From the NCBI GenBank assembly GCA_017630245.1, contig JAGBVQ010000151.1:1-40582 (forward strand): a stretch of 40,582 nt of DNA, given 5' to 3'. How positions within the stretch are numbered: position 1 is the first letter of the stretch; each line of letters starts with the position of its first letter. The stretch is from Alistipes sp. GTDB lineage: Bacteria; Bacteroidota; Bacteroidia; Bacteroidales; Rikenellaceae. Of this stretch, positions 13,116 through 40,452 are shown piece after piece. The notes beneath the pieces are model-generated. The model saw only the letters and a program-made list of their open reading frames with translations, was not told the origin of the DNA and made no database searches. A program made the position numbers and the translations under genes.

Positions 13116-13132
13116 TATATGCAAATTTTCTA

Positions 13133-13405: not shown

Positions 13406-16400
13406 ATGAAAAAACTTATTTTGACCGCTGTGGCTATCGTGTGCGCGTGCGCAACGATGGCGCAAACTGCAGTTCCCAAGATGGAGCGTTGGCAGGATCC
13501 AAACATCTATGAGGTGAATCGCTCGCCGATGCGTTCATCCTTTATCGTCTATCCTTCCGCTGAGGAGGCAAAGACCGGCAGTTGTTATCTCTCATCTCCC
13601 CTCTATCGCTCGATTGAGGGCGTGTGGAAGTTTGCGTGGTTTGAGCATCGCAACACTCCGCGTCCGGCAGATTTCTACGCTGTGAACTTCGATGACTCTA
13701 AGTGGGGCAAGATGCCTGTGCCGGGTCTGTGGGAGCTCAATGGCTACGGCGACCCGATCTACGTCAATAGCGGTTTTATCTGGGATAATTGCTATATCGA
13801 CAATCCTCCCTTTACTCCCGATTGGCAGAATCATATCGGACTCTATCGCCACGAGGTGGAGGTACCTGCCGAGTGGAAGGGTAAGCAGCTCTTCGTTCAC
13901 TTTGGCTCGGTAACTTCGAACCTTGCCCTCTACATCAACGGCAAGGAGGTGGGCTATAGCGAGGATAGCAAGTTGGAGGCAGAGTTCGATATTACCAAAT
14001 TTGTAAAGTTTGGCGAGAAGAACCTCTTCGCTCTGGAGGTGCACCGCTTCTGCGACGGATCCTATCTGGAGGATCAGGACTTCTGGCGTCTGTCGGGTAT
14101 CGCTCGCGCTGCCTACATCTACGCGCGCGACAAGCGCCACTTGAAGGATGTTAAGTTCGTTGCCGAGTTGGCTCACGAGTATAAGGATGGCCACCTCGAC
14201 GTGAATGTCGAGACCACTCCGGGCGTTAAGAGCGTAAAGATGGTGCTGACCGATGCCGATGGCAAGGAGGTACTCTCGACTACGGCGACTCCCAACAAGG
14301 AGGGTAAGATCGAGGAGTGTATGCATCTGCACGATGTGAAGGCGTGGAGCGCCGAGTGCCCCAATCTCTATACGCTGAAGGTTGAGGCTCTGGATGGAGC
14401 AAATACCATCGAGGCTACCGCTTTCAATGTAGGTTTCCGCACCGTCGAGATTAAGAACTCGCAGTTGCTCGTGAATGGTCAGCCTGTTTTGGTTAAGGGT
14501 GCTAACCGTCACGAGATTCACCCCAATGGTGGTTATCACCTCACCTATGAGCAGATGGTACGCGATATCCAGCTGATGAAGGAGCTCAACCTGAACGCTG
14601 TGCGCACCTGTCACTATCCCAACAGCCCGATATGGTATGACCTCTGCGACAAGTATGGAATCTATGTCGTGGATGAGGGTAATATCGAGTCGCACGGTAT
14701 GGGCTATGGCGACAAGAGCCTTGCTCATCGTGAGGATTATAAGGCTGCACACCTCATCCGCGACCAGCGTATGGTCTATCGTGACTTCAACCACCCCTCG
14801 GTAATTATCTGGAGCTTGGGTAACGAGGCAGGTAACGGTGTTAACTTCCACGCCTGCTACGATTGGATTAAGGCCTACGACAAGAGCCGCCCCGTGCAGT
14901 ACGAGCAGGCTTCGCAGTCGCGCTACAAGCAGCGTAACTCACGCAACTATAACTCGGATATCGAGTGCCCGATGTACTTGGATTACGCCAAGTGCGAGGC
15001 TTATGTTACCTCGAATCCCGATCGTCCGCTTATCCAGTGTGAGTATGCTCACGCTATGGGTCAGTCGATCGGCTCGTTCAAGGAGTATTGGGATCTGGTA
15101 CGCAAGTACCCCAACTATCAGGGTGGTTTTATCTGGGACTTTGTCGATCAGGCATTGGCTCGTCGTGATCCGCAGGGTGTGACCTATACCTATGGCGGTT
15201 GCTATAACGACTACGATTCGACCGATGAGTCATTCTGCTGTAATGGCTTTATATCGGCTCAGCGCAAGCCTCACACTTCGGCTTGGGAGGTTAAGCACCA
15301 GTATCAGAATATCTGGGCTTCGGCTAAGGATCTTGCCAATGGCGAGGTTGAGGTATATAACGAGTATTTCTTCCGCAATCTGGAGGCATATCGCCTTGAG
15401 TGGAGCCTGACTTCGGATGGTAAGAGCGCACTCGCAGGTGTTGTTGAGACGCTGGATGTTGCTCCGCAGGAGCGCAAGGTTGTGAAGTTGGGCTATAAGG
15501 CCGAGGATGTTGCAGCGCTCAAGGGAGAGGTTCTTCTGACCGTTCGTTTTGTGCTGAAGAGTGCCGAGCCGCTTTTGAATCCGGGCCACGAGGTTGCATT
15601 CAACCAGTTTACAGTTCGTGAGTGGGATGCAGCTGCGGCGTATGCTGCTGCGACGGCTCCTGCTCAGGCTGAGCCTCTGCGTATCTGCCGTGATAGCCGT
15701 ACAGTTTATGGTCACGACTTCTCGATTACATTCGCCGGCAAGGGCTGGTTGGAGGATTATACCCTCCGTGGTCGTAAGATGATTGCCGAGCCGATCATCC
15801 CCTCGCTCTATCGCCCGATGACCGAGAATGACTTTGGTGTTCGCAAGCGTGCACGCAACGCTGAGTACTACCACTCGCACAAGGCACTGCGTAATCCGCG
15901 AATGATGATGGATCTCTTCTTGATGGAGAAGGTGGAGGATAATGTGGTTGTTACCACAAGCTATAGCCTTGAGGAGCTGGGTGCTAAGGTTCACCTTATC
16001 TACACTATCTCGCCCGATGGTACAGTGTCGGTTACCGAGAAGCTCCGCCCGAGTAGTAGCTATAAGCTCAACCTGATTACAATGTTGCGTTTCGGCGTTG
16101 CGCTGGCTATGCCCGATTCTTATGATCATATCGAGTTCTACGGAGCAGGCCCGCACGAGAGCTACTGCGACCGTAAGAGCGGTAATAAGGTGGGAATCTA
16201 TAAGCAGGCTGTAGATGAGCAGTTCTGCACAACATACGTTCGTCCTCAGGAGTCGGGTTCGCACTGCGACCTGCGCTGGTGGAGAGTTACCGATTCGACA
16301 GGTAGTGGTCTGGAGGTACGCTCGGATATCCTCTTTGCAGCTTCGGCAATTCCTTATCCGCTCTCGCAGATCGATATCCTCTCGGATGACTATCGCAAGC

Positions 16401-16561
16401 ATCCGAACTTGCTCGAGAAGACGGGCAAGACCTACGTTAATATCGATATGGCGCAGGCAGGTCTTATTTGCGAGGATTCGTGGGGCGCAATTCAGTTGCC
16501 ACAGTACCAGATTCCTTACCAGAAGCATACGTTCAAGTTCGTATTGAAGCCGTTGCGATAG
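13406..16561 (+). CDS. GH2 beta-galactosidase (LacZ-like), secreted
   Basis: Signal peptide; YLEDQDFWRLSGI, KGANRHE, RTCHYP, WSLGNE (acid/base), CEYAHAMG (nucleophile), GGFIWDFVDQ, YVRPQESG. Confidence 0.95.
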   Translation: MKKLILTAVAIVCACATMAQTAVPKMERWQDPNIYEVNRSPMRSSFIVYPSAEEAKTGSCYLSSPLYRSIEGVWKFAWFEHRNTPRPADFYAVNFDDSKWGKMPVPGLWELNGYGDPIYVNSGFIWDNCYIDNPPFTPDWQNHIGLYRHEVEVPAEWKGKQLFVHFGSVTSNLALYINGKEVGYSEDSKLEAEFDITKFVKFGEKNLFALEVHRFCDGSYLEDQDFWRLSGIARAAYIYARDKRHLKDVKFVAELAHEYKDGHLDVNVETTPGVKSVKMVLTDADGKEVLSTTATPNKEGKIEECMHLHDVKAWSAECPNLYTLKVEALDGANTIEATAFNVGFRTVEIKNSQLLVNGQPVLVKGANRHEIHPNGGYHLTYEQMVRDIQLMKELNLNAVRTCHYPNSPIWYDLCDKYGIYVVDEGNIESHGMGYGDKSLAHREDYKAAHLIRDQRMVYRDFNHPSVIIWSLGNEAGNGVNFHACYDWIKAYDKSRPVQYEQASQSRYKQRNSRNYNSDIECPMYLDYAKCEAYVTSNPDRPLIQCEYAHAMGQSIGSFKEYWDLVRKYPNYQGGFIWDFVDQALARRDPQGVTYTYGGCYNDYDSTDESFCCNGFISAQRKPHTSAWEVKHQYQNIWASAKDLANGEVEVYNEYFFRNLEAYRLEWSLTSDGKSALAGVVETLDVAPQERKVVKLGYKAEDVAALKGEVLLTVRFVLKSAEPLLNPGHEVAFNQFTVREWDAAAAYAAATAPAQAEPLRICRDSRTVYGHDFSITFAGKGWLEDYTLRGRKMIAEPIIPSLYRPMTENDFGVRKRARNAEYYHSHKALRNPRMMMDLFLMEKVEDNVVVTTSYSLEELGAKVHLIYTISPDGTVSVTEKLRPSSSYKLNLITMLRFGVALAMPDSYDHIEFYGAGPHESYCDRKSGNKVGIYKQAVDEQFCTTYVRPQESGSHCDLRWWRVTDSTGSGLEVRSDILFAASAIPYPLSQIDILSDDYRKHPNLLEKTGKTYVNIDMAQAGLICEDSWGAIQLPQYQIPYQKHTFKFVLKPLR

Positions 16562-16653
16562 GGTATACCTATATATAATAGTAAGACAACGAGGTATCAA
16601 AATCTATAAAATATCTATACAAACTATTTATTAACTAACTAATTCTATTAACT

Positions 16654-16776
16654 ATGGTTAAAACAAACATTTCGACCAATTCGACTTACGAGGCACCCGC
16701 TGTTCTCGTAGTTGAGGTTGCCATCGAGCGCGGCTTTGCTGAGTCGTTGACCTTTGGCGAGGAGGAGGAGTTTTAA
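16654..16776 (+). CDS. 40-aa peptide MVKTNISTNSTYEAPAVLVVEVAIERGFAESLTFGEEEEF
   Basis: Hand translation; below the ORF-track cutoff. AT-rich leader, coding-like GC, stop 19 nt before the next start; YxxP...ExGFAxS plus acidic tail. Confidence 0.8.
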   Translation: MVKTNISTNSTYEAPAVLVVEVAIERGFAESLTFGEEEEF

Positions 16777-16795
16777 CGTAAACACCACGACGATT

Positions 16796-19324
16796 ATGAA
16801 GAAGATTTTTTCGGCAATGATTTGCGCGGTGGTTATGTTGGCATCCGCGTGTACACAGGAGTTTAATGACGATGCAGCTCCTGTAAAGATGAAGACGATC
16901 ACTATGAGTGTATCGTACGAACTTCCTGAGGTGTTCTCTGAGGATGGCACCCGTGTAACTCTTAATGATTTGAACCAGCTGGTTTGGGAGGCTGGTGATC
17001 AGATTAAAGTGGTTTACAATGGTAGCAGCGTTGCTACTTCGACTCCGCTTGATGCGAGCGATGCAGCTGTAGGTCAGCCTATTAAGGAGCCAGCAGAGTT
17101 CTCTATCGAGATTCCTGAGAGCGCAACCATTAACTACGCTTTTTACTTCTGTGGTAGTTATAATGGTACTCCCTCTTCAACCCGTCTGCGTATCCAGCTT
17201 GCAGGTTGGACAAATGGTGCACCAGATTACGGTAACAATATGGCTACCGGCACTTCGCTGGCTGAGGTTATCCGCCAGTCGCCTGCTTCGGGTACCGTAT
17301 CGTACAATCCTACAAATGGAACAGGTAACGTAACCTTGCACAATGCAGCTTCGTTTGTTGAGGTTCAGCTCACCGGTACTGAGAAGGTATGGTCTGTTGC
17401 AGTATTAAGTAAGTCGCAGAACCTGCGCTCGAGGTATGGTGATATCAACAATATCGCGTCGGCTGAGCCTAAGTGGGCTGTTTATCAGAATGTTGAGCGT
17501 AATAGCGAGGATCCCTCGTCGATGGGTGGTGCAATCTGCCTGCCTTCTAATGGCGCAGCACTCTCGGGTACACCGACTTCGTTCTACTTTGCAATGCCGG
17601 TTGTTGATCTGCCCGCTGAGGATATGTTTATCCTTGTTCGTGCTGAAACTTTCTGCCGTCTCTATCGTTCGAAGAATGCTCACTCGTTCAAGCGCAACCG
17701 CGTAACTCGTATCAAGTCGTTCGAGGCTGCAGCTCCCGATACTGATGCTATCACTTATGAGCCGCTGGATGAGCAGGGTCTTTCGAACTGCTATATGGTA
17801 GCTCCTGCTACAACCGATAAGTATTACTCATTCTCGGTTCAGAATATCGATGGCTCGACAGTTATCTGGAATACTAAGACCAGAAACTATGGCGTATGGC
17901 CTTTGTGGGCAACCAAGGATAAGTTGGTTGAGGATATCGCAGTTGTCTATGGTAATGCTGCTGAGGGTCGTGTACACTTCAAGGTTCCGGCAAATAGCGG
18001 TAAAGGTAGCTTTATGCTGACCGGAGGTCCTATCAACTCTGCACAGATGGGTACAAACTGGTCTTGGCATATCTGGGTAACCGATGCACACGCTGTTACT
18101 TATGGTGATCCTGCAATCACAGTTCTCGACCGTGCTCCGGGTGCTCAGTGGGTACCGACTTCGAAGGAGGATGTTGTTGCAATGACTCCCGAGCAGGCTG
18201 CTCAGAGTGTCGGCTTTATGTATCAGTATGGTCGTCACAATGCATTCCCCGGCGCGAAGAGCTTGAACAATCCTGCTGTCCTGAATAAGTGGGGTTATGA
18301 GGGCACTGGCGGTGACAAGGGTGCTTTTGTTACAGGTACTCAGGATGTTGAGTTCTATAAGTTTACTCGTTGGCAGAATGGCTTTACCAATTACGACAAC
18401 CCGTCGACAGCTCCGAAGGCTTCGACCGGCGTGAAGTATTACAACATGCAGATGGTTCAGTACGGTGGCTCTTGGGCTTCTGACGTAACACAGGAGTCGA
18501 TCAATGCTGATGGTACATCGGGTAATAAGGCATACTGGAGTACTGCCGAGAAGGGTAATCAGGACCCCTGCCCGCAGGGTTATCGCGTAGCAGGTCTGAC
18601 CGAGCTTGAGCGTATCCTCCGCGAGTTGAAGGGTGATACTTCGCTCTCGCTCTACACCAACCACTATAGCCCCTCGAATAAGACCTTCTCGCGCAGCGCA
18701 AAGAATACTGTTGATACAAATGCAGATGGTACGGCAGATGCTATGGATGCTGCAAATAATGCTATTAAGTACGCTACCGATGTTCTGGGTTCGTTCTCGG
18801 ACGGTGAGGTTGGTGAGCAGAGCGCAGATGCTCGTGAGGCTGCCCTCAATGGCAACTTCGTATGGTTCCCCCACGGCGGTTTCCGTATGATGAAGCAGGC
18901 TGTAGCTAACGCTGGTGAGCACGGTTGCTTGATGTACTCGACTAACTATCTCCACGATGGTAAGAGCGTGAATACTCCCGCTGTTGGTGTTATCTGGGGT
19001 GTGCCCGATTTCGATTTGACAGAGTTGCTCAAAACCACATATATTGCAATGCCGAGCCACGCTATAACGGGATATCCTAACTATGTTTTGATTCCTTACA
19101 AGTGGGCTACAACAGGTGAGAATATCTGGACTTACAGCACATTGGCTGGCAATTCGATTGCTGTTCGCCATAATAATGCAGCAACTGCCTTCACTATCAA
19201 TAAGGGTGGTCTTCCTGCACACGATGCACTTCCCGTACGTTGCGTGAAGTTGCCCGCAGCAAGCGGTCAGGCTTCGGTAGCTCCTCTTACAGGAGCGCAG
19301 AGCGACGCTAACGCTTGGAACTAA
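16796..19324 (+). CDS. Fimbrillin-like lipoprotein with C-terminal lectin-like (FISUMP/CLec-like) domain
   Basis: Lipobox ASA-C then acidic TQEFNDD; GTRVTL...WEAGDQI; SNCYMV, WSWHIWVTD, YQYGR, DPCPQGYRV, PVRCVK. Start placed at MKKIFS (16796). Confidence 0.75.
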   Translation: MKKIFSAMICAVVMLASACTQEFNDDAAPVKMKTITMSVSYELPEVFSEDGTRVTLNDLNQLVWEAGDQIKVVYNGSSVATSTPLDASDAAVGQPIKEPAEFSIEIPESATINYAFYFCGSYNGTPSSTRLRIQLAGWTNGAPDYGNNMATGTSLAEVIRQSPASGTVSYNPTNGTGNVTLHNAASFVEVQLTGTEKVWSVAVLSKSQNLRSRYGDINNIASAEPKWAVYQNVERNSEDPSSMGGAICLPSNGAALSGTPTSFYFAMPVVDLPAEDMFILVRAETFCRLYRSKNAHSFKRNRVTRIKSFEAAAPDTDAITYEPLDEQGLSNCYMVAPATTDKYYSFSVQNIDGSTVIWNTKTRNYGVWPLWATKDKLVEDIAVVYGNAAEGRVHFKVPANSGKGSFMLTGGPINSAQMGTNWSWHIWVTDAHAVTYGDPAITVLDRAPGAQWVPTSKEDVVAMTPEQAAQSVGFMYQYGRHNAFPGAKSLNNPAVLNKWGYEGTGGDKGAFVTGTQDVEFYKFTRWQNGFTNYDNPSTAPKASTGVKYYNMQMVQYGGSWASDVTQESINADGTSGNKAYWSTAEKGNQDPCPQGYRVAGLTELERILRELKGDTSLSLYTNHYSPSNKTFSRSAKNTVDTNADGTADAMDAANNAIKYATDVLGSFSDGEVGEQSADAREAALNGNFVWFPHGGFRMMKQAVANAGEHGCLMYSTNYLHDGKSVNTPAVGVIWGVPDFDLTELLKTTYIAMPSHAITGYPNYVLIPYKWATTGENIWTYSTLAGNSIAVRHNNAATAFTINKGGLPAHDALPVRCVKLPAASGQASVAPLTGAQSDANAWN

Positions 19325-19326
19325 TA

Positions 19327-19380
19327 ATTTTTGGGCGAAAGCACCTGCGCCAATTTGGGCGCAGGTGCAGGCCCGAAAAT
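19327..19380 (+). other. Strong intergenic hairpin without U-tract
   Basis: Perfect 11-bp stem gcacctgcgcc/ggcgcaggtgc (19341-19368) with outer arms atttttgggc/gcccgaaaat. Confidence 0.8.
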
Positions 19381-19400
19381 AACCAACTAACCTAAAACCA

Positions 19401-22400
19401 ATGAAACGAATTTTTAGATTCGTGCTTATGGTAGCCGCTTTGATGGCTATCGCTTGTACTGAGGATACGACGATCGATTCTCTTGTCGAGAACGATCTTG
19501 TGGAAGAGAATGAATATATAGGAGAGAGCGTGCGTCTTTCTCTCGATACAACACGTGCATCGCTCAACGGGCTCGATATGGCTTTCCAGCAGGGCGATGT
19601 TGTCAGTGTAAACGGAAAAAATATCTCGGTGCGTATCGACAAGAGCGGAGCATATCTGCTTGTGCCGAAGGCCGAGGATAATATATATCGTGCGGTATTT
19701 CCCGCAGAGGCTGCCGTTGCATTTATGGATGCAGGCAACTGTTCGTATGTTCACTCCAATATGCAGGTATATAGCCCTGGCTCGTTTGGTAAAGATGCGA
19801 TGTGTCTGGTGTCGTACCGCGACCTTAATGGCTCGCCTGAGGGTGGCGACATCACCTTCAATGCGATGCTTGGAGTGCTGAAACTGACTGTTAAAGGCGA
19901 TGCCGAGGTGCGCTCGATTCGCCTACAAAATAATGCTTTCAATAGCGCTGATGCTTCAACTGCAATGTCAGGTCGTACCCGTTTTGTGACGGCGAAAGGT
20001 ACGCTGCTCGGCGCAAACGTAATTGAGGATGCGCATCACGCTGCCCCCGCAGGCGCTTCGGGTATGACCGAGGATATTGTGTTGATGTGTAATGATACAA
20101 ACGGAACGGGTGTAAAACTCTCGCAAGAAGGTACCGACTTCTACTTTACCCTCTATCCGCGTGAGTACGCACAGGGCTTTACAGTGACAATCTCGGATAA
20201 TGACGGTAAGTCGCAGAAGTTCTCGACATCTGGCTCGACAACCGTGGCTGTGAATACTCTTGTTGAGATGCAACCGATGACTTATGCCCCCGATAAAGAC
20301 CTTATCTTCGCGGAAAGTTTTGATGTCTGTGTCTATGGTGGCGATTTGGTTGCATACCGCACAGGTAGCAACGTATGGCGAGGCCGCTTGCCGATTCATC
20401 GCGATGGCACGGTGGTCGAGGGTCTGCCGATTCTATCGACTCACACCGACCAAGATGGCTTGCAGCCCGGATACTACTACTCGAATTCCGCTATGGCAAA
20501 GTCGGGCGATGGCGTTACTCAACATAAGATTGTGACTCCGGGTCTTATCTTTGCGGACTATACTGAGGAGGGTACGGGATACTCTGCTACGATGGCGGAT
20601 GTGATCTCGGCAGGTAAGCTGCGAGTTACTCCCGAACTGCTCAATGTGCGCGGATTCAACGATTGGTATATAAGCCGTTGCATCGAGTATCACGGATACC
20701 TTGCAGTCGGTAACGAGAGAGCTCTGAACTCTACCTCGTCATTCAAGTTTAATATGAATCCCCTCGGAGTGCTTACGACTCCATATATGCCGATAAGTGG
20801 CTCGGTGGATGTTGAGGTATTCTTCGATATTGCTGCAGGTGACGGTGTGACCGGCTACTGCAAGAAGGATAGCCCCACTGCGAGCAACTCGTTCTACACT
20901 TTCCAACCCGATGCTACGGAGGCTGACGAGGCCAACAATATCTATTGGCGTGAGGATAAGTTCCGATTCTGCGTTGTCGGTGGTACAGGCCTGGCAACAA
21001 TTATTAAACTCGAATTTGTGGACGAGAATGGTGGTGTGATGGTAAAAGAGGACGGAACGCTGATGAGCTATGAGTCGAGCGGAAGCTATGTTGAGGTTCC
21101 CGAAAGCGACATTCCCGAAGAGTGGGCTCGCGTGAAGGTATTGGTGAAAAATGCCGATGATAAGACCCGATTCCGCTTCTACAACAATCAGGCAACTCGA
21201 TATATGACCTACCATATAGACAATATCGAGGTGCGTAGGGCAGACCTGAGCTATATTCCCGAAGATGCGAATGTGACCGGTACGGTGACTTGTGAGGGCC
21301 AGCCGATGCAGGGTGTAGTGGTGTCGGATGGCGAGCACGTAACTAAGACTGATGCAGAGGGTAGATACTATCTGCAGTCAGACCTCGAAACAACGAGTCA
21401 CGTATTTATCACTATCCCGTCGGGATATGAGATGACAGGTCGAAAGAATAACATCGCGCCTGCATTCTTCGCAGCCTTGAAGAATACCGAGACGGTACAG
21501 ATTTGCGACTTCCAGCTCAAAAAGGTCGATCAGACAAACTATACGATCCTCACTATGGCAGATTCGCACGTGCTGAAAGGCGCTGCAAACTTCGGTAGTA
21601 CCAATGATCGCACGTTATTTATGAACGAATTCCTGCCCAAGTGGAAATCATACGCTAATGAGTGTCTGGCTAAGGGGCCGGTGTATGGTATCCACCTCGG
21701 TGATATGACACAGCAAGCATATTGGAAGAAGAAGGTATCTATACTTGGATATACCTATACCTACGATAACTACTCGCTGGCGAGCTATTGTGCGGATCTT
21801 AAATCTTCGCCCGTACCCATATTCAGCGTAATGGGTAATCACGACCACGATATCCCGAAGTCGGGAACATTCGGCGAGGATGAGCAGCATCTTGCCCGCA
21901 AGAGCTTTACCTCGGCAGTAGGCCCGGCTTACTACTCGTTTGAAATTGGTACCGAGCACTATATCGTACTTGATAATGTTGTTATTATCAATAGCGATTC
22001 GGGTACGAATAACTATAACGACAATACTGCTACGGGCTACAAAGTCAAGATTGACTCCAAGCAGTTGCAGTGGTTGAAGGATGATGTGGCTCAGATTGAT
22101 CAGTCGAAGATTAAGGGTGTGGTAATCTGTACCCACTGCCAATTCTACTACGCAAACAAGGGCCTGGCTACGATTCGTGCGAATGAGGTTATGGCTGCTG
22201 TAAATAAGTTCCCGGTAACGCTGCTTGTCGGCCACTCGCACGTGTATCGCTACCTCGAAGCGAATACCCCGACCTACAGCAAGAGTGTTCGTGAGTACCT
22301 TACGCCAGCATTGATGGGTACGGCTTGGCACGATTCGATGACCTGTACCGATGGTACTCCCGCCTCGTTTGTCGCCTTTACGTTTAAGGATGGAAAGACA

Positions 22401-22850
22401 AGCTCTCACGAGGTTATTCCGTTTAGTAACCTCAATAAGGAACTTACACTTCGTGCATACGACAAGAATTCGGATTATACCATCACTGAGGGCTCGTTTA
22501 CTGCCAATAAACCAGAGAATGACGATGCAACGAAGAGTGCTCCTGCGGTGATTGTTAATGCGTGGGGTGCTAAGAGTGTGACCTTCCGTGAGTCTACGGG
22601 CGGAACAGGAGTTACCAAGCAGGGTGTATTCGATCCCTACTATCGCACTTGGTTCCACCAATCTTTGGCTTCGAGCGATAGAAACTCTATTCTCTGTAAT
22701 AAGACCTATCCCGACGGCCCGGGCTGGCAGCAACCATATAATAGTAACCATATCTGGAAGTATATCCCCTCCGACCCTTCGGCAAGTGTTACGGCAACCA
22801 TTACCGATGAGTTTGGCTCTACTCGTACCCTGACATTGCAGGCTAAGTAG
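19401..22850 (+). CDS. Lipoprotein: fimbrillin-like and beta-sandwich module fused to a calcineurin-like metallophosphoesterase
   Basis: Lipobox AIA-C; TTRASL; GVVVSDG...TKTDAEGRY (MetallophosN-like); DSH, GDMTQ, GNHDHD, H, GHSH metal motifs. Confidence 0.85.
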   Translation: MKRIFRFVLMVAALMAIACTEDTTIDSLVENDLVEENEYIGESVRLSLDTTRASLNGLDMAFQQGDVVSVNGKNISVRIDKSGAYLLVPKAEDNIYRAVFPAEAAVAFMDAGNCSYVHSNMQVYSPGSFGKDAMCLVSYRDLNGSPEGGDITFNAMLGVLKLTVKGDAEVRSIRLQNNAFNSADASTAMSGRTRFVTAKGTLLGANVIEDAHHAAPAGASGMTEDIVLMCNDTNGTGVKLSQEGTDFYFTLYPREYAQGFTVTISDNDGKSQKFSTSGSTTVAVNTLVEMQPMTYAPDKDLIFAESFDVCVYGGDLVAYRTGSNVWRGRLPIHRDGTVVEGLPILSTHTDQDGLQPGYYYSNSAMAKSGDGVTQHKIVTPGLIFADYTEEGTGYSATMADVISAGKLRVTPELLNVRGFNDWYISRCIEYHGYLAVGNERALNSTSSFKFNMNPLGVLTTPYMPISGSVDVEVFFDIAAGDGVTGYCKKDSPTASNSFYTFQPDATEADEANNIYWREDKFRFCVVGGTGLATIIKLEFVDENGGVMVKEDGTLMSYESSGSYVEVPESDIPEEWARVKVLVKNADDKTRFRFYNNQATRYMTYHIDNIEVRRADLSYIPEDANVTGTVTCEGQPMQGVVVSDGEHVTKTDAEGRYYLQSDLETTSHVFITIPSGYEMTGRKNNIAPAFFAALKNTETVQICDFQLKKVDQTNYTILTMADSHVLKGAANFGSTNDRTLFMNEFLPKWKSYANECLAKGPVYGIHLGDMTQQAYWKKKVSILGYTYTYDNYSLASYCADLKSSPVPIFSVMGNHDHDIPKSGTFGEDEQHLARKSFTSAVGPAYYSFEIGTEHYIVLDNVVIINSDSGTNNYNDNTATGYKVKIDSKQLQWLKDDVAQIDQSKIKGVVICTHCQFYYANKGLATIRANEVMAAVNKFPVTLLVGHSHVYRYLEANTPTYSKSVREYLTPALMGTAWHDSMTCTDGTPASFVAFTFKDGKTSSHEVIPFSNLNKELTLRAYDKNSDYTITEGSFTANKPENDDATKSAPAVIVNAWGAKSVTFRESTGGTGVTKQGVFDPYYRTWFHQSLASSDRNSILCNKTYPDGPGWQQPYNSNHIWKYIPSDPSASVTATITDEFGSTRTLTLQAK

Positions 22851-22883
22851 AGGAGGAGTGAGTTTAATAAAATTTTAATAGGA

Positions 22884-24557: not shown

Positions 24558-24594
24558 GAATACAACAATAATAATAACTTAAACTATTTACACA

Positions 24595-26238: not shown

Positions 26239-26260
26239 TTAAACTAAAAATATATACCTA

Positions 26261-29353: not shown

Positions 29354-29365
29354 ACGAAAACCGAT

Positions 29366-30970: not shown

Positions 30971-30991
30971 CCTTAAAACAGCTAAGAGATT

Positions 30992-32041: not shown

Positions 32042-32056
32042 TCATTAAACGATTGA

Positions 32057-34267: not shown

Positions 34268-34287
34268 CTCTCAAATGTTGATATTCT

Positions 34288-36648
34288 ATGAAAATGATTG
34301 ATATAAAGAAGGTTTTTAGATGTGGCGTGGTCGCTTTGGCGACCCTTGCCACCGCCTGCGTTGTCGAGGAGACAGTTCCTGTAACAGGAAGTGAACTCGG
34401 CGCCTTGCAGAAGGTCTACGAGGTGGAGTCCGTTGCCGATATGTTGCACGTTGATGTCTACTCGAATAATACCTATACCATCTCGCTTTTGAATGATGCT
34501 GATTGGGTATCGTTCCCTGCCACCTCGTCGGGCGATAAGGGCTTTGATGTAAGCTATACCGAGAATAATGCCACACACCGTCAGGCGATCCTGCGTCTGA
34601 GTGTCGAGCAGTTCAACCACTCCGATACGGTCTATATCCGTCAGAGAGGTTTGGCTGCGCAGTACCTTAAGATGGAGGATGCGGGCATCGTTGTGGCAGG
34701 TAGTGCTGCAGGCGAGTCTACAACAACTATTGATACCAATGTCGAGGCTGACCAGATTTCGGTTAAGGCTGTGAATCTTTCGGCCGGCGATGAGTGGATT
34801 AGCGATCTGCGTGTTGAGGAGCAGGGCGGAGAGGTTAAGCTCAGCTTCAACTACGCAGCGAACGATAGTGCCGATGCACTGCGTAAGGCTCGCGTTACGA
34901 TGTCGTATGTGGATGGTTGGAATAACCACGTATCCTACGACGTGATCGTTACCCAGCGCACGGGCGATGATAAGCTCGGCGTTGCAAAGAGCTTTGAGCA
35001 GGTGCGTGCTATGGCTGACGTGAAGGGTGTAGTGCTTGATGAGGATATCCTCATTGAGGGTATTGTTGTGAGCAACCGCGAGTCGGGTAATGCCGGCGAT
35101 AATACGCAGAATTCGCCCGCAACGATCGATTACTCAATTAGCGAGCGTACGATCTACCTCGAGTCTATGGATGGTAAGTATGGATTTATGCTCAAGACCG
35201 CAACCAAGGAGGATAACATCTTCTTGTTCGGCGATAAGGTTTCGTTCTCGTTGCGTGGAGCAAAACTCTTCCGCTCGAATCCCGTGATGTCGAAGATGCT
35301 GGGTGAGACTGCCCCCGACTATTATTGGTTCACCGACGTCACCTCGTCGATGGTGGTATCGCGTGTTGAGGGTGCTACCGTTCCCGTGAAGGAGCTCTCG
35401 ATCAACCAGCTTACCGATGCGGATATCTTTACTTACGTTAAGTTGCAGAATTGCGAGATCTCGATGCGTAAGGGTCCGCTGACCCCGATTAACGAGGGTT
35501 ATGCTAATGCTACCGGCGCGAACCGTACAGCAAAGCATGCGATTTTGCTGCACGATATGAATGGTGATGCGCTCTATGTCTACACCAATACAACTTGCCT
35601 CTACCGTCGTGATGGTAAGTGTTTGCCCTACGGTATCGGAACAATGTCGGGTGTAATAGTTCATGAGTTGTATACTCGTTTCGAGTACGCTGACAACGAT
35701 ACTGGCGATGAGGATACTTATGGCAATATTGGTCGCTACCAGATCCGCCACCAGTCGTATGAGGACTTCGGTATGGCTAAGGATTCGAAGGATGCACAGT
35801 CGAAAGTTCTGGCCGAGTGGAGCTACATCACCGATCAGTATCTCACCCTCTATCCCGCAACTGCCGGTGAGGATAAGAATGCAGTGATGGATCACACTTT
35901 CCGATATACTGATAACAACGCTTCGGATTCGCGCAGACATACTTGTGTGAACTTCGATGAGGATTTCTCGTACTTGGGCCCCATTGGAAATAATGCAGAG
36001 TTTATGTTCGGCAAGAATACGGGTAACCAGAATGGTCTGGGCGTAATCTTGGACGATGGTACTAACTGGATGGCTCCGGGCTATACGGGCTATCGTAGCG
36101 AGCAACTCGTAAATATCAATAACAACTCGAGCTCTCACGCCGGTAAGGGTCAGGTTCCGAGCGCTGTAGGTTCAGGCTGGAAGGTGTGGTACAACATCGA
36201 TGCTAAGGGCCATGCTCACAGCTTCCTCTTTACGGTTTCGACCAAGAGTGTGGATGCCGGCGATAAGCTCTATGCTGTAGCTTCGATGCAGAACTCTGTA
36301 ACCAGCGGCAACTTCGGTCTTCGTTATTGGTTTGCAGAGTACTCGCTGACCGATAATACAGGTCGTGGTGATGAGGCTGAGTGGGTTACAATGGAGCGTT
36401 TCTCGGTGCCCGACCGTATTCAGTGGACTCCCACATCGCAGCTCTTCCAGAGCTCGGGATATAAGCCTGTGTTTATAGAGTTGCCGGCGGAGGTGTTGGC
36501 AGGTAAGGATGAGGTGTATATCCGTCTGCGTCCTGATGTTAAGGCCGGCTTCGGTTCGTCTCTGGACTATATCAGCGAGGGTGCACACTCGTCGGCCTAT
36601 CTGTCGTGGACTTCGATGAACTATTTTGCAGTCCGCTACAATAAATAG
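34288..36648 (+). CDS. Lipoprotein with two BACON domains and a DUF5689-like region
   Basis: Lipobox ATA-C; two W..N..R..Q repeats, then IEGIVVS...GN, TIYLESMDGKYGF, TYVKLQNCE, G-x-MSGVIV. Confidence 0.7.
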   Translation: MKMIDIKKVFRCGVVALATLATACVVEETVPVTGSELGALQKVYEVESVADMLHVDVYSNNTYTISLLNDADWVSFPATSSGDKGFDVSYTENNATHRQAILRLSVEQFNHSDTVYIRQRGLAAQYLKMEDAGIVVAGSAAGESTTTIDTNVEADQISVKAVNLSAGDEWISDLRVEEQGGEVKLSFNYAANDSADALRKARVTMSYVDGWNNHVSYDVIVTQRTGDDKLGVAKSFEQVRAMADVKGVVLDEDILIEGIVVSNRESGNAGDNTQNSPATIDYSISERTIYLESMDGKYGFMLKTATKEDNIFLFGDKVSFSLRGAKLFRSNPVMSKMLGETAPDYYWFTDVTSSMVVSRVEGATVPVKELSINQLTDADIFTYVKLQNCEISMRKGPLTPINEGYANATGANRTAKHAILLHDMNGDALYVYTNTTCLYRRDGKCLPYGIGTMSGVIVHELYTRFEYADNDTGDEDTYGNIGRYQIRHQSYEDFGMAKDSKDAQSKVLAEWSYITDQYLTLYPATAGEDKNAVMDHTFRYTDNNASDSRRHTCVNFDEDFSYLGPIGNNAEFMFGKNTGNQNGLGVILDDGTNWMAPGYTGYRSEQLVNINNNSSSHAGKGQVPSAVGSGWKVWYNIDAKGHAHSFLFTVSTKSVDAGDKLYAVASMQNSVTSGNFGLRYWFAEYSLTDNTGRGDEAEWVTMERFSVPDRIQWTPTSQLFQSSGYKPVFIELPAEVLAGKDEVYIRLRPDVKAGFGSSLDYISEGAHSSAYLSWTSMNYFAVRYNK

Positions 36649-36711
36649 ATATCCTTTTACACACAAAAGTGGCTACCTCTGCGGGTGGTCGCAATGTAAA
36701 GAAATATAGCT

Positions 36712-38310
36712 ATGAAGCTACAATTTAAAACCCTATTGATGGCGGTGGTGCTGCTTGTGGCAGCACTCCCCGCCGCAACGGAGGCTAGGGCGCAGAAGGT
36801 CTGGAAATTTGAGGAGCTGCGTACAGAGGCGGCAAAGCGCGAGATTACTAACATTGACACCGATGTTCTGATCGAGGGATTTGTTATCAGTGATCCAACG
36901 AGCGAAAACCGAGAGCATAATGGTCAAGCCTTCTTTAACTCGACTTATAATGGCAATGCAAATGTTGTCTATTTCGAGTCTTTGGATGGTAAGTATGGAT
37001 TCCGTTGCTATCTCTCATCGTCAAAAGATGTTAAGAACTTTCCTCGTTATGCACGTATGATGCTTAACTTGAAGGGTACGAACATTAAGCGATTCGGCGC
37101 TGACCGATTCTCGATTAACAAGCTCTCCAGCAAGGCCATTGTGCGTCAGTTTGCGGGCAATGCTGCGGCGCTGCCTCGCAAGGAGCGTTATATCCACGAG
37201 CTGACTCCGGCGGATATGTACACCTATGTGACACTCAAGGATTGTGAGTTTGTCTTCAAGGATGGCTCCTTCTCTAACGTCTACGAGAACTATTCGCAGA
37301 GGTCGAGTATCAATAAGTTCGGTAACGGAATGATGGATGGCTGGGCTTCGCTCTTGTGCGATAAGTACGGCTCGAAGATCTATATGTATATGAATACCAA
37401 AGTGCCTTGGCGCCGCGATGGTAGCGGTGTTCCGCAGGGTGCAGGCGATATGAAGGGTGTGCTGGTATTTACCTTTATGCCGCGCTATGGTGTTAATGAT
37501 TTCTTCGGTACGGCTGCTATCCGTCCGATGACGCGCGAGGATATTGCAATGCCTGCGGAGCCCGAAAAATCTAACTATAAGAGTATCGCCGAGTGGAATT
37601 GGAGTGACAACTCGTTTACATTCAACACCGAGAAGGGCCAGCGTAAGGCAGTCTCGACAGAGCGCATTTTGGCTGATGTTGGTAGCGGTACGCTACACTC
37701 GATGGTCGGTGGTGAGGTTATTCGCGGTCGTGACTATAATAACCTGCGCATCACTGATGGTAAGGAGTATGGCTCGAAGGGCGATCGTGGAATGGTGCTG
37801 CGTGGCGCAATGCGCATTAAGACCCCGGCCTGCAGTTGGTGGGATTGGAAGAGCGATTGTGGCCGTGGTATCGAGCTTAACTTTTCGACCGAGGGTATCT
37901 CGGGCAATAAACTGATGGTTGCATTCTCGTTTGGTGCCGGCGAAATTAACGCTCAGACGTCGTACGATTTCCCCGTATATTGGGGTGTTGAATACTCGAC
38001 CGATGGTAAGAATTTCTACCGTATAGCAACCTCTCCCAAGGCGCTGCGTTCGGTGCCCTGGTGGTATGTGAATGATATCGGAGGGGTAACCTATCCCACC
38101 TCGGAAGAGGCTGGTCTGGGCTTTACGGAGCATAGAGTGCTTCTGCCTGCGGATGCCTTTGGCTGCAAGAATGTTACGGTGCGTATCGTTCCTATTGCAA
38201 AGAATGCAGCTACGCTTGCTACTCGCAATACCGATAAGGCGGCGCTGCGCCCCAATCTGATGACAGATACCTATGTAAGTTTCGGCTCGATAGTAGTGCG
38301 TTATAATTAA
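36712..38310 (+). CDS. DUF5689-like secreted protein (SPI paralog of 34288..36648 without BACON domains)
   Basis: Signal ending ARA-Q; IEGFVIS, YFESLDGKYGF, TYVTLKDCEF, RRDG..VPQG, terminal VRYN shared with the upstream paralog. Confidence 0.7.
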   Translation: MKLQFKTLLMAVVLLVAALPAATEARAQKVWKFEELRTEAAKREITNIDTDVLIEGFVISDPTSENREHNGQAFFNSTYNGNANVVYFESLDGKYGFRCYLSSSKDVKNFPRYARMMLNLKGTNIKRFGADRFSINKLSSKAIVRQFAGNAAALPRKERYIHELTPADMYTYVTLKDCEFVFKDGSFSNVYENYSQRSSINKFGNGMMDGWASLLCDKYGSKIYMYMNTKVPWRRDGSGVPQGAGDMKGVLVFTFMPRYGVNDFFGTAAIRPMTREDIAMPAEPEKSNYKSIAEWNWSDNSFTFNTEKGQRKAVSTERILADVGSGTLHSMVGGEVIRGRDYNNLRITDGKEYGSKGDRGMVLRGAMRIKTPACSWWDWKSDCGRGIELNFSTEGISGNKLMVAFSFGAGEINAQTSYDFPVYWGVEYSTDGKNFYRIATSPKALRSVPWWYVNDIGGVTYPTSEEAGLGFTEHRVLLPADAFGCKNVTVRIVPIAKNAATLATRNTDKAALRPNLMTDTYVSFGSIVVRYN

Positions 38311-38327
38311 AATGAGGAGTTGAAGTT

Positions 38328-40430
38328 ATGCGTTTTAATAAGATAATAGTTTCGATTTTGCTCCTTGCTGCAACAAGTGTGGCAATGGCAGATAATGTGG
38401 CCGGTACGGCAGAGCGTCCCGACCCTGCAACCGAGAAGATCGCGGTGAATACAACTCCGAGTGAGGCTTATGATGCGAAGAATGTAGACTTTGCGAAGCT
38501 GACCGATATCGAGGTTGTGGGCAATCGTCTGTGGGCTTCGGTGCTTGGCGGTGGCGAGAATGAGAAGGGCTTCCTGATGTTGGCCTATAGCGACAATGGA
38601 GGTAAGTCGTGGCGTATGCCTGTGGGCGTTATCGACCCGCACGATACAGCGCTTAAGCATCCCCGTTCGGCAAATCACGGAGTGCTGTGGCTCTCGCCTA
38701 AGGGTGAGCTGTGGTACTTCTATACGGTTTCGATGTACTACTTCGATGGTCGAGGTTCTCTCTTTGCTACCGTTTGCCGCAATGCCGAGAGCGAGAATCC
38801 CGCTTGGAGCGAGCCTATGCACTTGGGCGCAGGTGTCTGCACCGGTAAGCCGGTGATTCACCCCGGTAACGGCAATTGGGTGTTGCCGGTGGCTCTCTGG
38901 GGTAGAGATTTGATCAACTACGAGGGCCGTCGCTGGATTATGTCGGCACAGAAGGGTCACAAATGGGTATCGCCCTATGCTGAGGAGTATAAGGAGTTTG
39001 ACTCGAAGCGAGGCTCGGGTGTCTATGTGTCGAGTGACGAGGGCGCAAGCTGGAGTGCACACCTCGGCGCAGTGAAGACCCCCAGTGCCGTCGCTGAGCG
39101 TTATCCCAACCCTACGCTGTATGTAAACCAGAAGGGTGGTATAACGATGGTTACCCGCTCGGCAAATACAGCCTATGCACACGCTTCGTGGTCGACGGAT
39201 GGTGTGTCGTGGAGCCCCAATGCGTGGAAACATCTTCCTGCACCTGACCAGAATATTCTCTTTACGAATCGTCCTGACGGCAAGTTGATGATGGTGCGTA
39301 ATGGCCGATTCGACCAGCCGCTCTATTGGTTGCCCGAGAAGATGTATGTCTACCTCTCGGATGATAATGGCACGACTTGGTATGGCGGTCTGAGAATCTC
39401 GTCGGATAATCTCTCGCTCGATCCCTGTGTGGCTCAGGCAAAGGATGGTACGATCTATATCGCCTACACATCCAACATTTTCGGCAAGAGTGAGATACGC
39501 CTTGTGACTACTTCGGAGGCGGAGATCGATAACGCCTCGACTGCGTTGGCCGTGAATGCTGCGAATGTGGCACCCATCCTGGCGATGCCGAAGGCTGCGG
39601 CTCGTGCCGATGCCGAGTTGAAGACGCTGCAGGCTACGCGCAAGGAGTGGGGTAAGCAGTCGTTGCGTGTGGCAACCTACAATATTCAGTATCCTACTCG
39701 TTGGAATGAGCGTCTGATTCCGCTTATCAAGACCATAGATAAGTATGATTTAGATGTGTTTGGTTCGCAGGAGCCATTTATGCCTCAGATTGAGGATATG
39801 ATGGCGCATATCGGCGACCGCTACGCTTGGATTGGTACCTGCATCGCGGGAGATGATAATGTGCGTAATAAGCACTTTAACCCTATCTTCTACAAGAAGG
39901 AGCGCTTGGAGTTGCTCGATTGGGATACCATTTGGTTTACCGATAAGGCCGGAACTCCGGGCTATGGTGCGTGGTCGGCACGTCTGCTGACGTGGGCTCA
40001 CTTCCGCGACAAGGCTACCGATAAGGAGTTCTATCTCTTCAACTCGCACTTCGACCACCTCGGTCCCGAGGCTAAGGAGGTGGCCGCACATATCTTGGTG
40101 CAGGCTGTGCGCGAGATTGCTAAGGGTATGCCGGCATTCTGTACGGGTGACTTTAACTGCGACGAGTATAGCCGTCCCTATAAGACTATCATCGCATCGG
40201 AGTTTATCAACGACTCTTTCAGAGCTGTGGCAGAGCCGACTAACGGAGTCTATCCCTCACACAGTGGCTATAGGGCTCCAAAGCCTGGTAATAGCACCCA
40301 TATCGACCACGTCTTCTTTACGCCCAATGCGGTGCGTATCATGAATTGGGAGTTGATTATCGAGGGCTATAATGGTATGTGGGGTTCGGACCACTTGCCG
40401 ATCTTTGTGGATTGTAAGATTGCGAACTAA
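38328..40430 (+). CDS. Secreted fusion: Asp-box (BNR, sialidase-like) beta-propeller plus EEP phosphoesterase
   Basis: Asp boxes SDNGGKSW, SSDEGASW, STDGVSW, SDDNGTTW; EEP motifs ATYNI, GSQE, NSHFDH, TGDFN, HIDHVF, SDHLP. Confidence 0.88.
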   Translation: MRFNKIIVSILLLAATSVAMADNVAGTAERPDPATEKIAVNTTPSEAYDAKNVDFAKLTDIEVVGNRLWASVLGGGENEKGFLMLAYSDNGGKSWRMPVGVIDPHDTALKHPRSANHGVLWLSPKGELWYFYTVSMYYFDGRGSLFATVCRNAESENPAWSEPMHLGAGVCTGKPVIHPGNGNWVLPVALWGRDLINYEGRRWIMSAQKGHKWVSPYAEEYKEFDSKRGSGVYVSSDEGASWSAHLGAVKTPSAVAERYPNPTLYVNQKGGITMVTRSANTAYAHASWSTDGVSWSPNAWKHLPAPDQNILFTNRPDGKLMMVRNGRFDQPLYWLPEKMYVYLSDDNGTTWYGGLRISSDNLSLDPCVAQAKDGTIYIAYTSNIFGKSEIRLVTTSEAEIDNASTALAVNAANVAPILAMPKAAARADAELKTLQATRKEWGKQSLRVATYNIQYPTRWNERLIPLIKTIDKYDLDVFGSQEPFMPQIEDMMAHIGDRYAWIGTCIAGDDNVRNKHFNPIFYKKERLELLDWDTIWFTDKAGTPGYGAWSARLLTWAHFRDKATDKEFYLFNSHFDHLGPEAKEVAAHILVQAVREIAKGMPAFCTGDFNCDEYSRPYKTIIASEFINDSFRAVAEPTNGVYPSHSGYRAPKPGNSTHIDHVFFTPNAVRIMNWELIIEGYNGMWGSDHLPIFVDCKIAN

Positions 40431-40452
40431 ATAAAAACGGCTTAGGTATGTG

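What the first reader, a model, noticed from the sequence alone, without database searches (positions are those of the whole stretch)
13406..40430. SusC/D locus built around phosphoester hydrolysis rather than glycoside hydrolysis
Seen: the SusC/SusD pair is accompanied by three calcineurin-like metallophosphoesterases and an EEP fusion, but only one clear glycosidase (GH2). A second cassette at 1360-7764 adds three EEP enzymes and a GDPD, giving eight exported phosphoesterases from three unrelated folds with intact-looking metal motifs. Established: SusCD loci usually encode the enzymes matching their substrate. Inference: the target is a phosphodiester-linked, possibly galactosylated polymer such as teichoic/lipoteichoic acid, a phosphodiester capsule or phosphoglycan. 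Nucleic acid or phospholipid head groups are alternatives.
Basis: partly seen in the sequence, partly recalled or inferred. Interest (0 to 1): 0.85.

Follow-up and report, generated by a model that had tools for sequence, protein, structure and literature searches.

The report
Phosphodiester-polymer uptake locus in gut Alistipes
A gut Alistipes bacterium carries a sugar-uptake-type gene cluster whose enzymes are almost all phosphate-ester cutters, and the same transporter lineage keeps such enzymes from gut to soil bacteria, so it likely imports phosphate-linked polymers, probably microbial cell-wall polymers such as teichoic acids, with nucleic acid as the main alternative.

Summary
Observation confirmed. 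The window (an Alistipes-like gut MAG) encodes SusC/SusD with three calcineurin-like metallophosphoesterases, a BNR–EEP fusion and one GH2; a second cassette adds three EEPs and a GDPD. All eight keep their metal motifs. Two DUF5689 proteins are present; the folded one is tandem OB folds plus a CBM-like sandwich, and DUF5689 is the family of the DNA-uptake protein DdbD. The BNR domain is a sialidase fold lacking most catalytic residues. The locus belongs to a SusC lineage reaching Chitinophaga and Pedobacter: 28 of 31 GTDB loci carry DUF5689, 26 a phosphoesterase, only 4 a GH2/20/109. EEP, metallophosphoesterase, EndoIV-like barrel, S1/P1 and GDPD swap in that slot, so a phosphodiester substrate is well supported. 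Which polymer is not shown. I favour sugar/polyol-phosphate envelope polymers (0.45) over nucleic acid (0.30). Reasons: 3–7 paralogous systems per genome, a separate Ddb-type DNA locus, a BT3783-like sugar-phosphatase domain, and GlpT-like antiporters and GDPD near related loci. The galactose claim is weak. SusCD with phosphatases is known (Flavobacterium PUS); this OB–CBM-equipped family is a new variant.

The parts
13406..16561 (+). GH2 LacZ-type beta-galactosidase, SPI-type signal; accessory, not core
   Evidence: Pfam GH2 domains; NF052611 968.6 bits, cut-off 999; WSLGNE and QCEY motifs; ortholog widespread in Alistipes
16654..16776 (+). 40-aa leader ORF of a family that precedes lipoprotein genes
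   Evidence: sequence; 12 motif hits in G000, 11 of one acidic-tailed type upstream of lipoprotein-like genes
16796..19324 (+). Non-catalytic lipoprotein, inferred fimbrillin-like stalk plus Fib_succ-like end
   Evidence: weak PF09603 E 0.0067, under cut-off; paralog of 32057; start
19327..19380 (+). Strong intergenic hairpin (possible RNA stability or termination element)
   Evidence: -38.5 kcal/mol, z -7.0
19401..22850 (+). MPP1: lipoprotein, stalk + jelly-roll 'domain X' + metallophosphoesterase
   Evidence: PF16371/PF00149/PF16370; domain X residues 297-616; motifs
22884..24557 (+). MPP2: lipoprotein metallophosphoesterase
24595..26238 (+). MPP3: SPI-type (likely periplasmic) metallophosphoesterase
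26261..29353 (+). SusC TonB-dependent transporter of a lineage tied to DUF5689 and phosphoesterases
   Evidence: TIGR04056 over cut-off; relatives; tree
29366..30970 (+). SusD lipoprotein
   Evidence: PF07980, PF14322
30992..32041 (+). BACON-domain lipoprotein
   Evidence: PF13004, two stretches
32057..34267 (+). Second non-catalytic lipoprotein, paralog of 16796
   Evidence: no Pfam or PDB match; 26% identity to 16796
34288..36648 (+). DUF5689a: lipoprotein, BACON + OB-OB + jelly roll; predicted surface binding protein
   Evidence: PF18942, PF13004; homologous to DUF5689b
36712..38310 (+). DUF5689b: SPI-type protein, tandem OB folds + CBM-like jelly roll; predicted periplasmic binding protein
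   Evidence: AlphaFold2 pLDDT 93.5; OB Z 8.6 (MCM10), CBM22 Z 8.0
38328..40430 (+). Likely inactive sialidase-fold propeller fused to a BT3783-like EEP phosphatase; SPI-type
   Evidence: BNR_2 + EEP; Z 31.9 to 1eur; residue comparison; 3g6s, 3mpr and 4c1r at E 7e-39 to 3e-29
40439..40506 (+). Hairpin after the last gene, probable terminator
   Evidence: -28.9 kcal/mol, z -3.9
1360..3819 (-). EEP1: stalk + domain X + EEP of the family found in related SusC loci
3847..5391 (-). EEP2: partial domain X + EEP
5416..6813 (-). EEP3: partial domain X + EEP
6832..7764 (-). GDPD + DUF4996 glycerophosphodiester phosphodiesterase family
   Evidence: 48% identical homolog inside a related SusC locus of G009

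Best explanation
This is a SusC/SusD locus with four phosphoesterase genes and two DUF5689 proteins, and it likely captures, cuts and imports a sugar- or polyol-phosphate polymer from microbial cell envelopes (teichoic/lipoteichoic acid, or a phosphodiester-linked capsular or cell-wall glycan). Shown: gene content, intact metal motifs, conserved linkage, predicted OB-OB-CBM fold. Inferred steps: (1) surface DUF5689a and SusD bind the chain, with OB folds on the phosphodiester backbone and jelly rolls on sugar decorations; (2) surface lipoproteins MPP1 and MPP2 cut phosphodiesters; (3) SusC imports the fragments; (4) in the periplasm DUF5689b holds them while MPP3, the BT3783-like EEP and optionally GH2 trim them; (5) GDPD, the related EEPs of the second cassette and GlpT-like antiporters encoded elsewhere deliver glycerol- or sugar-phosphate to the cytoplasm.
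For: Phosphodiester substrate: 26 of 31 related GTDB loci keep a co-oriented phosphoesterase and 28 of 31 a DUF5689, against 4 of 31 with GH2/20/109. EEP, MPP, S1/P1, GDPD and an EndoIV-like barrel with conserved H/H/E/D/H/H/D/H/E (ligand set recalled) replace one another. Outside the lineage, 11 of 11 SusC genes with DUF5689 nearby also have EEP/MPP, against 26 of 111 without. For a sugar/polyol phosphate rather than DNA: the locus' own EEP is closest to BT3783 (3mpr/4c1r, E 2e-29 to 3e-29), the phosphatase of the yeast-mannan PUL (PMC4978465). The locus encodes no S1/P1 or non-specific endonuclease. G000 has a separate Ddb-type locus on C53, whose proteins lack the jelly-roll domains that SusCD-linked DUF5689 proteins carry. 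G000 has 3 paralogous systems, five close relatives 3-4, and G007 7, which suggests chemically varied substrates; ddb subtypes are mutually exclusive. GlpT/PgtP-like MFS genes lie in or beside related loci of G007 and G009, and a GDPD 48% identical to the window's lies inside one. GH20 plus GH2 follow the A. timonensis-type loci. B. subtilis recycles wall teichoic acid with a metallophosphoesterase (PhoD) and a GDPD (GlpQ) (recalled, no call).
Against: No substrate is shown. DUF5689 is the family of DdbD, a DNA-uptake protein, and its closest folds are ssDNA-binding OB domains. The EEP family of the core and of the second cassette matches L1 endonuclease, ExoIII and APE1 best (E about 1e-14 to 1e-8). 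S1/P1 nucleases sit in sister loci, and a non-specific endonuclease follows the DUF5689b/BNR-EEP pair in G001 and G005. The MPP profile matches purple acid phosphatases best, so these may be monoesterases. The GH2 is widespread and may be a bystander. The jelly-roll matches are borderline (Z 7-8).
Confidence: 0.45

Rival explanations
1. The lineage imports nucleic-acid fragments (RNA or DNA oligomers). It would be a SusD-lidded counterpart of ddb: OB folds bind single strands, and EEP, EndoIV-like, S1/P1 and metallophosphoesterases cut them to nucleotides and nucleosides.
For: DUF5689 is the DdbD family. Tandem OB folds resemble RPA, MCM10 and Teb1. The core EEP profile is nearest to DNA phosphodiesterases. 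S1/P1 lies beside DUF5689b-type genes in G000 C122, G007, G011, L090 and L106. A nucleoside symporter is divergent from a G011 locus. The minimal Chitinophaga/Pedobacter loci have no glycosidase.
Against: A separate Ddb-type locus exists in G000, G004 and G009. Up to 7 paralogous systems per genome is hard to explain for a uniform polymer. This locus has a sugar-phosphatase-like EEP and no recognisable nuclease family. Sugar-phosphate antiporters, GDPD, GH20 and GH2 recur nearby.
Confidence: 0.3
2. The substrates are head groups of phospho- and glycolipids (phosphatidylglycerol or -inositol, plant or fungal inositol-phosphoceramides, GPI anchors), cut by phospholipase-C/D-like EEP, MPP and GDPD enzymes and trimmed by GH2/GH20.
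For: The MPP profile also matches SMPDL3a (E 1e-4). GDPD is present, GDSL esterases follow some related loci, and G000 encodes a glycerol-3-phosphate dehydrogenase. EEP and MPP folds include sphingomyelinases (recalled).
Against: No sphingomyelinase is among the 60 best solved matches of the EEP profile. Tandem OB-fold binders suggest a polymer. The locus has no lipase.
Confidence: 0.15
3. The locus is a broad organic-phosphorus scavenging system (PUS-like) switched on by phosphate starvation, with no single polymer target, or the phosphoesterases mainly serve surface or defence roles on adhesin-like stalks.
For: Flavobacterium PusCD loci co-localise with PDEs, PMEs and Po transporters (PMC8115612). 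The lineage includes soil taxa. G000 has genome-wide expansions: 12 related EEPs, 7 MetallophosN and 7 S1/P1.
Against: Related loci carry ECF/FecR or DUF6377 regulators, which suggest substrate induction. Dedicated binding proteins point to a defined ligand. The ruminant gut is generally phosphate-rich (recalled).
Confidence: 0.1

Closest known systems
Phosphate utilisation systems PUSI/PUSII of Flavobacterium johnsoniae (Lidbury et al., PMC8115612; passages read)
   Same: SusCD pair co-localised with predicted phosphodiesterases/phosphomonoesterases (including a PF00149 protein) and organophosphate transporters instead of CAZymes.
   Different: DUF5689 is not mentioned in that paper (0 occurrences). 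This locus adds OB-OB-CBM binders, surface lipoprotein MPPs on stalks and a propeller-EEP fusion. Phosphate regulation was not tested here, nor orthology to PusC1/PusC2.
ddbABCDEF DNA-utilisation locus of Bacteroides thetaiotaomicron (Sharan et al., bioRxiv 2025.03.18.642099, parts 1-3 of 4 read; PMC12478041, passages)
   Same: TonB-dependent transporter plus DUF5689 protein plus exported phosphodiesterases in a PUL-like order.
   Different: Here the transporter is a SusC with a true SusD. DUF5689 carries an extra jelly-roll domain. The EEPs belong to other subfamilies and no non-specific endonuclease is encoded. G000 has its own Ddb-type locus on C53 with no significant BLAST similarity to the window proteins.
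Yeast alpha-mannan PULs of B. thetaiotaomicron, phosphatase BT3783 (PMC4978465; passages read)
   Same: EEP-family sugar phosphatase inside a SusCD locus; nearest characterised relative of the 38328 EEP domain.
   Different: There the EEP is an accessory to many glycosidases; here phosphoesterases are the main enzymes and no mannanase or mannosidase is encoded.
Ribose utilisation system (rus) of B. thetaiotaomicron (bioRxiv 10.1101/574913; passages read)
   Same: SusCD locus aimed at a non-polysaccharide, nucleic-acid-related nutrient.
   Different: rus encodes ribokinases and a nucleoside hydrolase; none is in this window.

Membership tests
SusC/D utilisation locus (PUL) | adjacent susC and susD genes | tested here: met
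   TIGR04056 over cut-off; PF07980 over cut-off; 12 bp apart
SusC/D utilisation locus (PUL) | glycoside hydrolases or lyases that match the substrate are conserved with susCD | tested here: not met
   GH2/20/109 co-oriented in 4 of 31 related loci within 10 kb; beta-helix proteins in 5; phosphoesterases in 26
SusC/D utilisation locus (PUL) | substrate-induced co-expression | not testable with these tools
   only RNA-library contigs were available
ddb DNA-utilisation locus | DUF5689 protein in the locus | tested here: met
   two PF18942 proteins over cut-off
ddb DNA-utilisation locus | DdbC-type transporter with DUF5689 as its lid, no SusD | tested here: not met
   SusC/RagA with SusD; the Ddb-type transporter of G000 C53 shows no significant similarity (E >= 0.3)
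ddb DNA-utilisation locus | secreted nucleases of DdbA/B/F type with DNase activity | tested here: inconclusive
   no PF01223 in the window; window EEPs fall outside the DdbB-like branch; activity untested
Flavobacterium PUS | SusCD co-localised with phosphoesterases | tested here: met
Flavobacterium PUS | induction by phosphate depletion | not testable with these tools
   needs expression data under defined phosphate
Flavobacterium PUS | orthology to PusC1/PusC2 | not tested
GH33 sialidase (BNR domain of 38328) | six-bladed sialidase propeller fold | tested here: met
   Z 31.9, rmsd 2.8, 304 aligned to 1eur
GH33 sialidase (BNR domain of 38328) | arginine triad, catalytic Glu and Tyr nucleophile | tested here: not met
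   by sequence register (motif positions recalled): R277 kept; first Arg is K57 (Q in family consensus); no third Arg; Tyr replaced by D365; no conserved Glu. Not checked on coordinates.
Calcineurin-like metallophosphoesterase | DxH, GD, GNH, H, GHxH motifs | tested here: met
   all three proteins
Calcineurin-like metallophosphoesterase | diesterase rather than monoesterase activity | tested here: inconclusive
   best solved matches are purple acid phosphatases, then LMO2642 and SMPDL3a
EEP superfamily | N, E, GDxN, D and SDH catalytic motifs | tested here: met
   all four proteins

The most novel reading that the evidence does not exclude
A family of SusCD loci marked by OB-OB-CBM (DUF5689) binders is the Bacteroidota machinery for eating teichoic acids and other phosphodiester-linked envelope polymers of neighbouring microbes. 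A lineage of small-genome (about 1.9 Mb) gut Alistipes has specialised on such polymers: 3 of the 5 listed SusC genes over the family cut-off in G000 are of this kind, a fourth also has metallophosphoesterases, and the genome holds a dozen related EEPs.
Probability: 0.3. Interest if true: 0.82.

Novelty: new variant of a known kind. Interest (0 to 1): 0.58.

Why it matters
Bacterial envelopes are a large pool of carbon and phosphorus in the gut and rumen, and my ten literature searches found no SusCD system assigned to teichoic acids or phosphodiester-linked capsules. This family gives named candidates in cultured strains: Alistipes timonensis JC136, A. montrealensis, and four-gene minimal versions in Chitinophaga and Pedobacter. 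The question can therefore be tested directly with a few purified proteins. If the substrate is nucleic acid instead, it would be a second, SusD-lidded route beside ddb. Either way, DUF5689 next to a SusCD pair is a useful marker for phosphoester-processing loci that CAZyme-based PUL prediction would miss. It may also help explain the niche of poorly saccharolytic Alistipes.

Tried and rejected
Rfam and ARAGORN found nothing. Sigma-70 promoter and terminator scans were at chance level. The recalled Bacteroidota promoter pattern gave no full match upstream of the locus; one -7 box lies at 7859-7866 (-), upstream of the GDPD. No solved relative by sequence was found for DUF5689b, EEP3 or the 32057 lipoprotein. 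Atlas searches gave only EEP clusters and unnamed clusters below 0.9, so 'domain X is a jelly roll' is a lead only. Domain X and the DUF5689 C-terminal sandwich are not detectably homologous (probability 0.5%). An active sialidase, and hence a mucin or ganglioside locus, was rejected on catalytic residues. Membership of ddb was rejected. The idea that phosphoesterases beside SusCD are unique to this lineage was rejected: they occur near 37 of 122 other SusC genes, and DUF5689+EEP/MPP loci occur in at least three other SusC branches. S1/P1 expansion does not track the lineage: 11-12 copies in G003, G014 and G022, where no clade SusC was found. The idea that GH2 is lineage-specific was rejected. 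RNA-library contigs from 4 runs of 3 studies cover most bins of both cassettes, but no silent control stretch was laid, so transcription is not shown. A complex prediction of DUF5689b with the BNR domain was not available, so no binding between them is claimed. Literature searches showed no paper on SusCD-DUF5689-phosphoesterase loci or a teichoic-acid PUL. One search was spoiled by word-start matches to 'susceptible', only listings were seen for most hits, and the library lacks most subscription papers. Supplements of the ddb and PUS papers were not opened and could list such loci.


Full report
Setting. The window is the whole contig C142 of G000, a 1.84 Mb, 81% complete MAG. Genomes with 87-95% identical SusC are titled Alistipes sp. 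or Rikenellaceae. Runs that hold the stretch are labelled gut or bovine gut metagenome, or carry a coded organism name.

Observation. Searches confirm the genes. On the + strand: GH2, a lipoprotein, three MetallophosN/Metallophos/MetallophosC proteins, SusC, SusD, a BACON lipoprotein, a second lipoprotein, two DUF5689 proteins and a BNR_2-EEP fusion (13406-40430). On the - strand: a GDPD and three EEPs (1360-7764). Five housekeeping genes lie between the two blocks. Metal motifs are present in all eight phosphoesterases. By eye, MPP1, MPP2, SusD and DUF5689a have a lipobox followed by the acidic export signal defined in PMC12478041. MPP3, DUF5689b, BNR-EEP, GH2 and EEP1-3 have no lipobox and are likely periplasmic (inferred). 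Hairpins lie at 19327-19380 (z -7.0) and after the last gene (z -3.9).

DUF5689b was folded with a 96-sequence alignment (pLDDT 93.5). Its N-terminal part matches OB folds (MCM10 Z 8.6, rmsd 3.2, 106 aligned; RPA tandem OB Z 7.4 over residues 28-289) and residues 287-532 match CBM-like jelly rolls (CBM22 Z 8.0). These scores are near the background the tool warns of, so they give a fold class, not a function. DUF5689 is the family of DdbD, the partner of the DNA transporter DdbC. The BNR domain folds as a GH33 sialidase propeller (pLDDT 90, Z 31.9). By sequence register it keeps one of three arginines and lacks the tyrosine and a conserved glutamate (motif positions recalled), so it is probably a binding module. 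The fusion is a conserved family: 68 hits, most with both domains. Its EEP is closest to 3g6s and to BT3783 (3mpr/4c1r), which PMC4978465 describes as a phosphatase of the yeast-mannan system.

Conservation. Five close relatives keep the order EEP cassette-housekeeping-GH2 (in one the cassette is split over contigs) and carry 3-4 paralogous SusC genes each. G007 has the full main locus including GH2 and holds the three EEPs elsewhere, without the GDPD in that stretch. A scan of GTDB genomes gave 32 loci, counted as 31 because two are halves of one gene (L089 dropped). They come from Alistipes, other Bacteroidales, Dysgonomonas, Sphingobacterium, Chitinophaga and Pedobacter. Within at most 10 kb, 28 of 31 have a co-oriented DUF5689 (the other 3 end at contig edges), 26 of 31 a co-oriented EEP, MPP, S1/P1 or GDPD, 4 of 31 a GH2, GH20 or GH109, and 5 a beta-helix protein. 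The minimal form is ECF-FecR-SusC-SusD-EEP-DUF5689. Another subtype uses a TIM barrel with the metal-ligand pattern of endonuclease IV (ligand set recalled), often with an S1/P1 protein. The SusC proteins form one branch (FastTree support 0.94 for those at 46% identity or more; 0.82 with the 42-47% group). Among 41 genomes, the DUF5689b profile matched 6, all of which also hold this SusC lineage; G020 has a 44% SusC and no match.

Control. In G004, G007, G009 and G011 I compared the 134 listed SusC genes over the cut-off with EEP, MetallophosN and DUF5689 positions. At most 44 candidates per genome were scored, so the set is incomplete. At 10 kb, 11 of 12 lineage members have DUF5689 and 8 of 12 an EEP or MPP by these Pfam models; the other four have the EndoIV-like barrel (two), a degenerate EEP or a GDPD. 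Of 122 others, 11 have DUF5689 and all 11 have an EEP or MPP (one borrows these from an adjacent lineage locus), against 26 of 111 without DUF5689. So DUF5689 plus phosphoesterase is a rule across several SusC branches and is not unique to this locus. Kin are not independent, so no test statistic is given.

The second cassette. EEP1-3 nest within the EEP family encoded in lineage loci (SH-aLRT 95), apart from the BT3783-like and DdbB-like branches. They share 'domain X' with MPP1, the TIM-barrel proteins and stand-alone lipoproteins of related loci. A GDPD 48% identical to the window's lies in a related locus of G009, next to a GlpT-like transporter. The link is therefore evolutionary and probably functional, not one operon.

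The genome. G000 has three loci of this lineage: C142, C139 and C15 continuing into C212. They are 3 of the 5 listed G000 SusC genes over the cut-off; a fourth (C165) also has two MPPs. It encodes 12 EEPs of this family (the most among 25 genomes of the genus searched), 7 MetallophosN, 7 S1/P1 and 4 GlpT-like transporters. It also has a separate Ddb-type locus on C53.

Which polymer. For nucleic acid: the OB folds and DdbD kinship; best solved matches of the core EEP profile to L1 endonuclease, ExoIII and APE1; S1/P1 neighbours; and a non-specific endonuclease downstream of the stand-alone DUF5689b/BNR-EEP pair in G001 and G005. For sugar or polyol phosphates: the BT3783-like domain; no nuclease family in this locus; jelly rolls on SusCD-linked DUF5689 proteins but not on those of three Ddb-type loci; up to seven paralogous systems per genome, whereas ddb subtypes exclude each other; GlpT-like transporters and GDPD near some loci; GH20 and GH2 after the A. 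timonensis-type loci. Against galactose as a core feature: GH2 orthologs at 62-63% identity occur in G003, G014 and G022, where the lineage was not found, and lie elsewhere in G001, G005, G009 and G011. The MPP profile is ambiguous between mono- and diesterases. I put envelope phospho-polymers at 0.45, nucleic acid at 0.30, lipid head groups at 0.15 and general scavenging or other at 0.10. An earlier AI note on a look-alike locus leaned to nucleic acid; it is not independent evidence.

Expression. Contigs of four RNA libraries from three studies cover 23-28 of 30 bins of 20700-40582 and 25-30 of 30 bins of 900-20800, at low depth. This fits expression in the gut but does not show it.

Known systems and verdict. 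SusCD loci with phosphatases are described as PUS in Flavobacterium, and DNA use through a DUF5689 system as ddb. This locus works like a PUS or ddb locus but fails the ddb transporter test and adds OB-OB-CBM binders to a true SusCD. Ten searches showed no description of this family. Papers seen: ddb preprint parts 1-3 of 4; passages of PMC12478041, PMC8115612, PMC4978465 and 10.1101/574913; abstract and outline of PMC10704324, which shows that an EEP can be a sugar-specific phosphodiesterase. No supplements were opened. Verdict: real, conserved, a new variant of a known kind, substrate open and directly testable; interest 0.58.

Noticed in passing
window 16654-16776 (+); also G000 C18, C75, C96, C97, C103, C112 (two), C154, C157, C212: A family of 35-55 aa leader ORFs with a YxxP...E.GF motif and acidic tail sits just upstream of large lipoprotein genes (11 of 12 motif hits). 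RNA contigs of two runs of one study begin at 16638 and 16647. Function unexplained.
   Followed up: partly
window 13306-13314: Poly-G9 tract in the intergenic region upstream of GH2; 14 such tracts in G000, 13 intergenic. Possible phase-variable promoter spacing, untested.
   Followed up: partly
G005 (31 matches), G001 and G014 (12), G003 and G022 (11), G020 (9), G000 (7): Large tandem expansions of S1/P1 nuclease-family genes in small Alistipes genomes, against 1-2 in most others.
   Followed up: no
G000 C96, C145, C126, C94, C159, C139: Nine further stalk + domain X + EEP proteins, mostly with lipoprotein-type N-termini where the start is on the contig, several in tandem; catalytic motifs largely intact.
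   Followed up: partly
G000 C53:1-8300 (L142): Ddb-type locus: BACON lipoprotein, non-specific endonuclease, EEP, TonB-dependent transporter, DUF5689; also in G004 and G009.
   Followed up: partly
L122:9831-16526 (G001), L124:15871-L125:2378 (G005): DUF5689b and BNR-EEP occur as a stand-alone pair behind a two-component-like gene pair, followed by a Na+/H+ antiporter and a non-specific endonuclease, with no SusCD.
   Followed up: partly
L015:3117-4406 (G000 C197): Stand-alone BNR_2 paralog that keeps the Glu, two Arg and Tyr positions lost in the fusion but lacks the first Arg; a possible non-canonical glycosidase.
   Followed up: no
L115-L118 (G007 C4): More divergent members of the SusC lineage carry degenerate EEPs together with BNR proteins, sialate O-acetylesterases, a GH5 and TPR proteins, suggesting a shift to another glycan.
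   Followed up: partly
L073, L074, L043-L044: galM and galK (with a small GDPD between them in L073 and L074) lie upstream of the subtype with the EndoIV-like barrel.
   Followed up: partly
G000 C145, C21, C23, C51, C74, C15: Eight similar PHP-family proteins, some beside the EEP or MPP paralogs.
   Followed up: no
control genomes: The DUF5689 model scores over its cut-off in Bacillus subtilis; from memory this may be the OB-fold nuclease YhcR, not checked.
   Followed up: no
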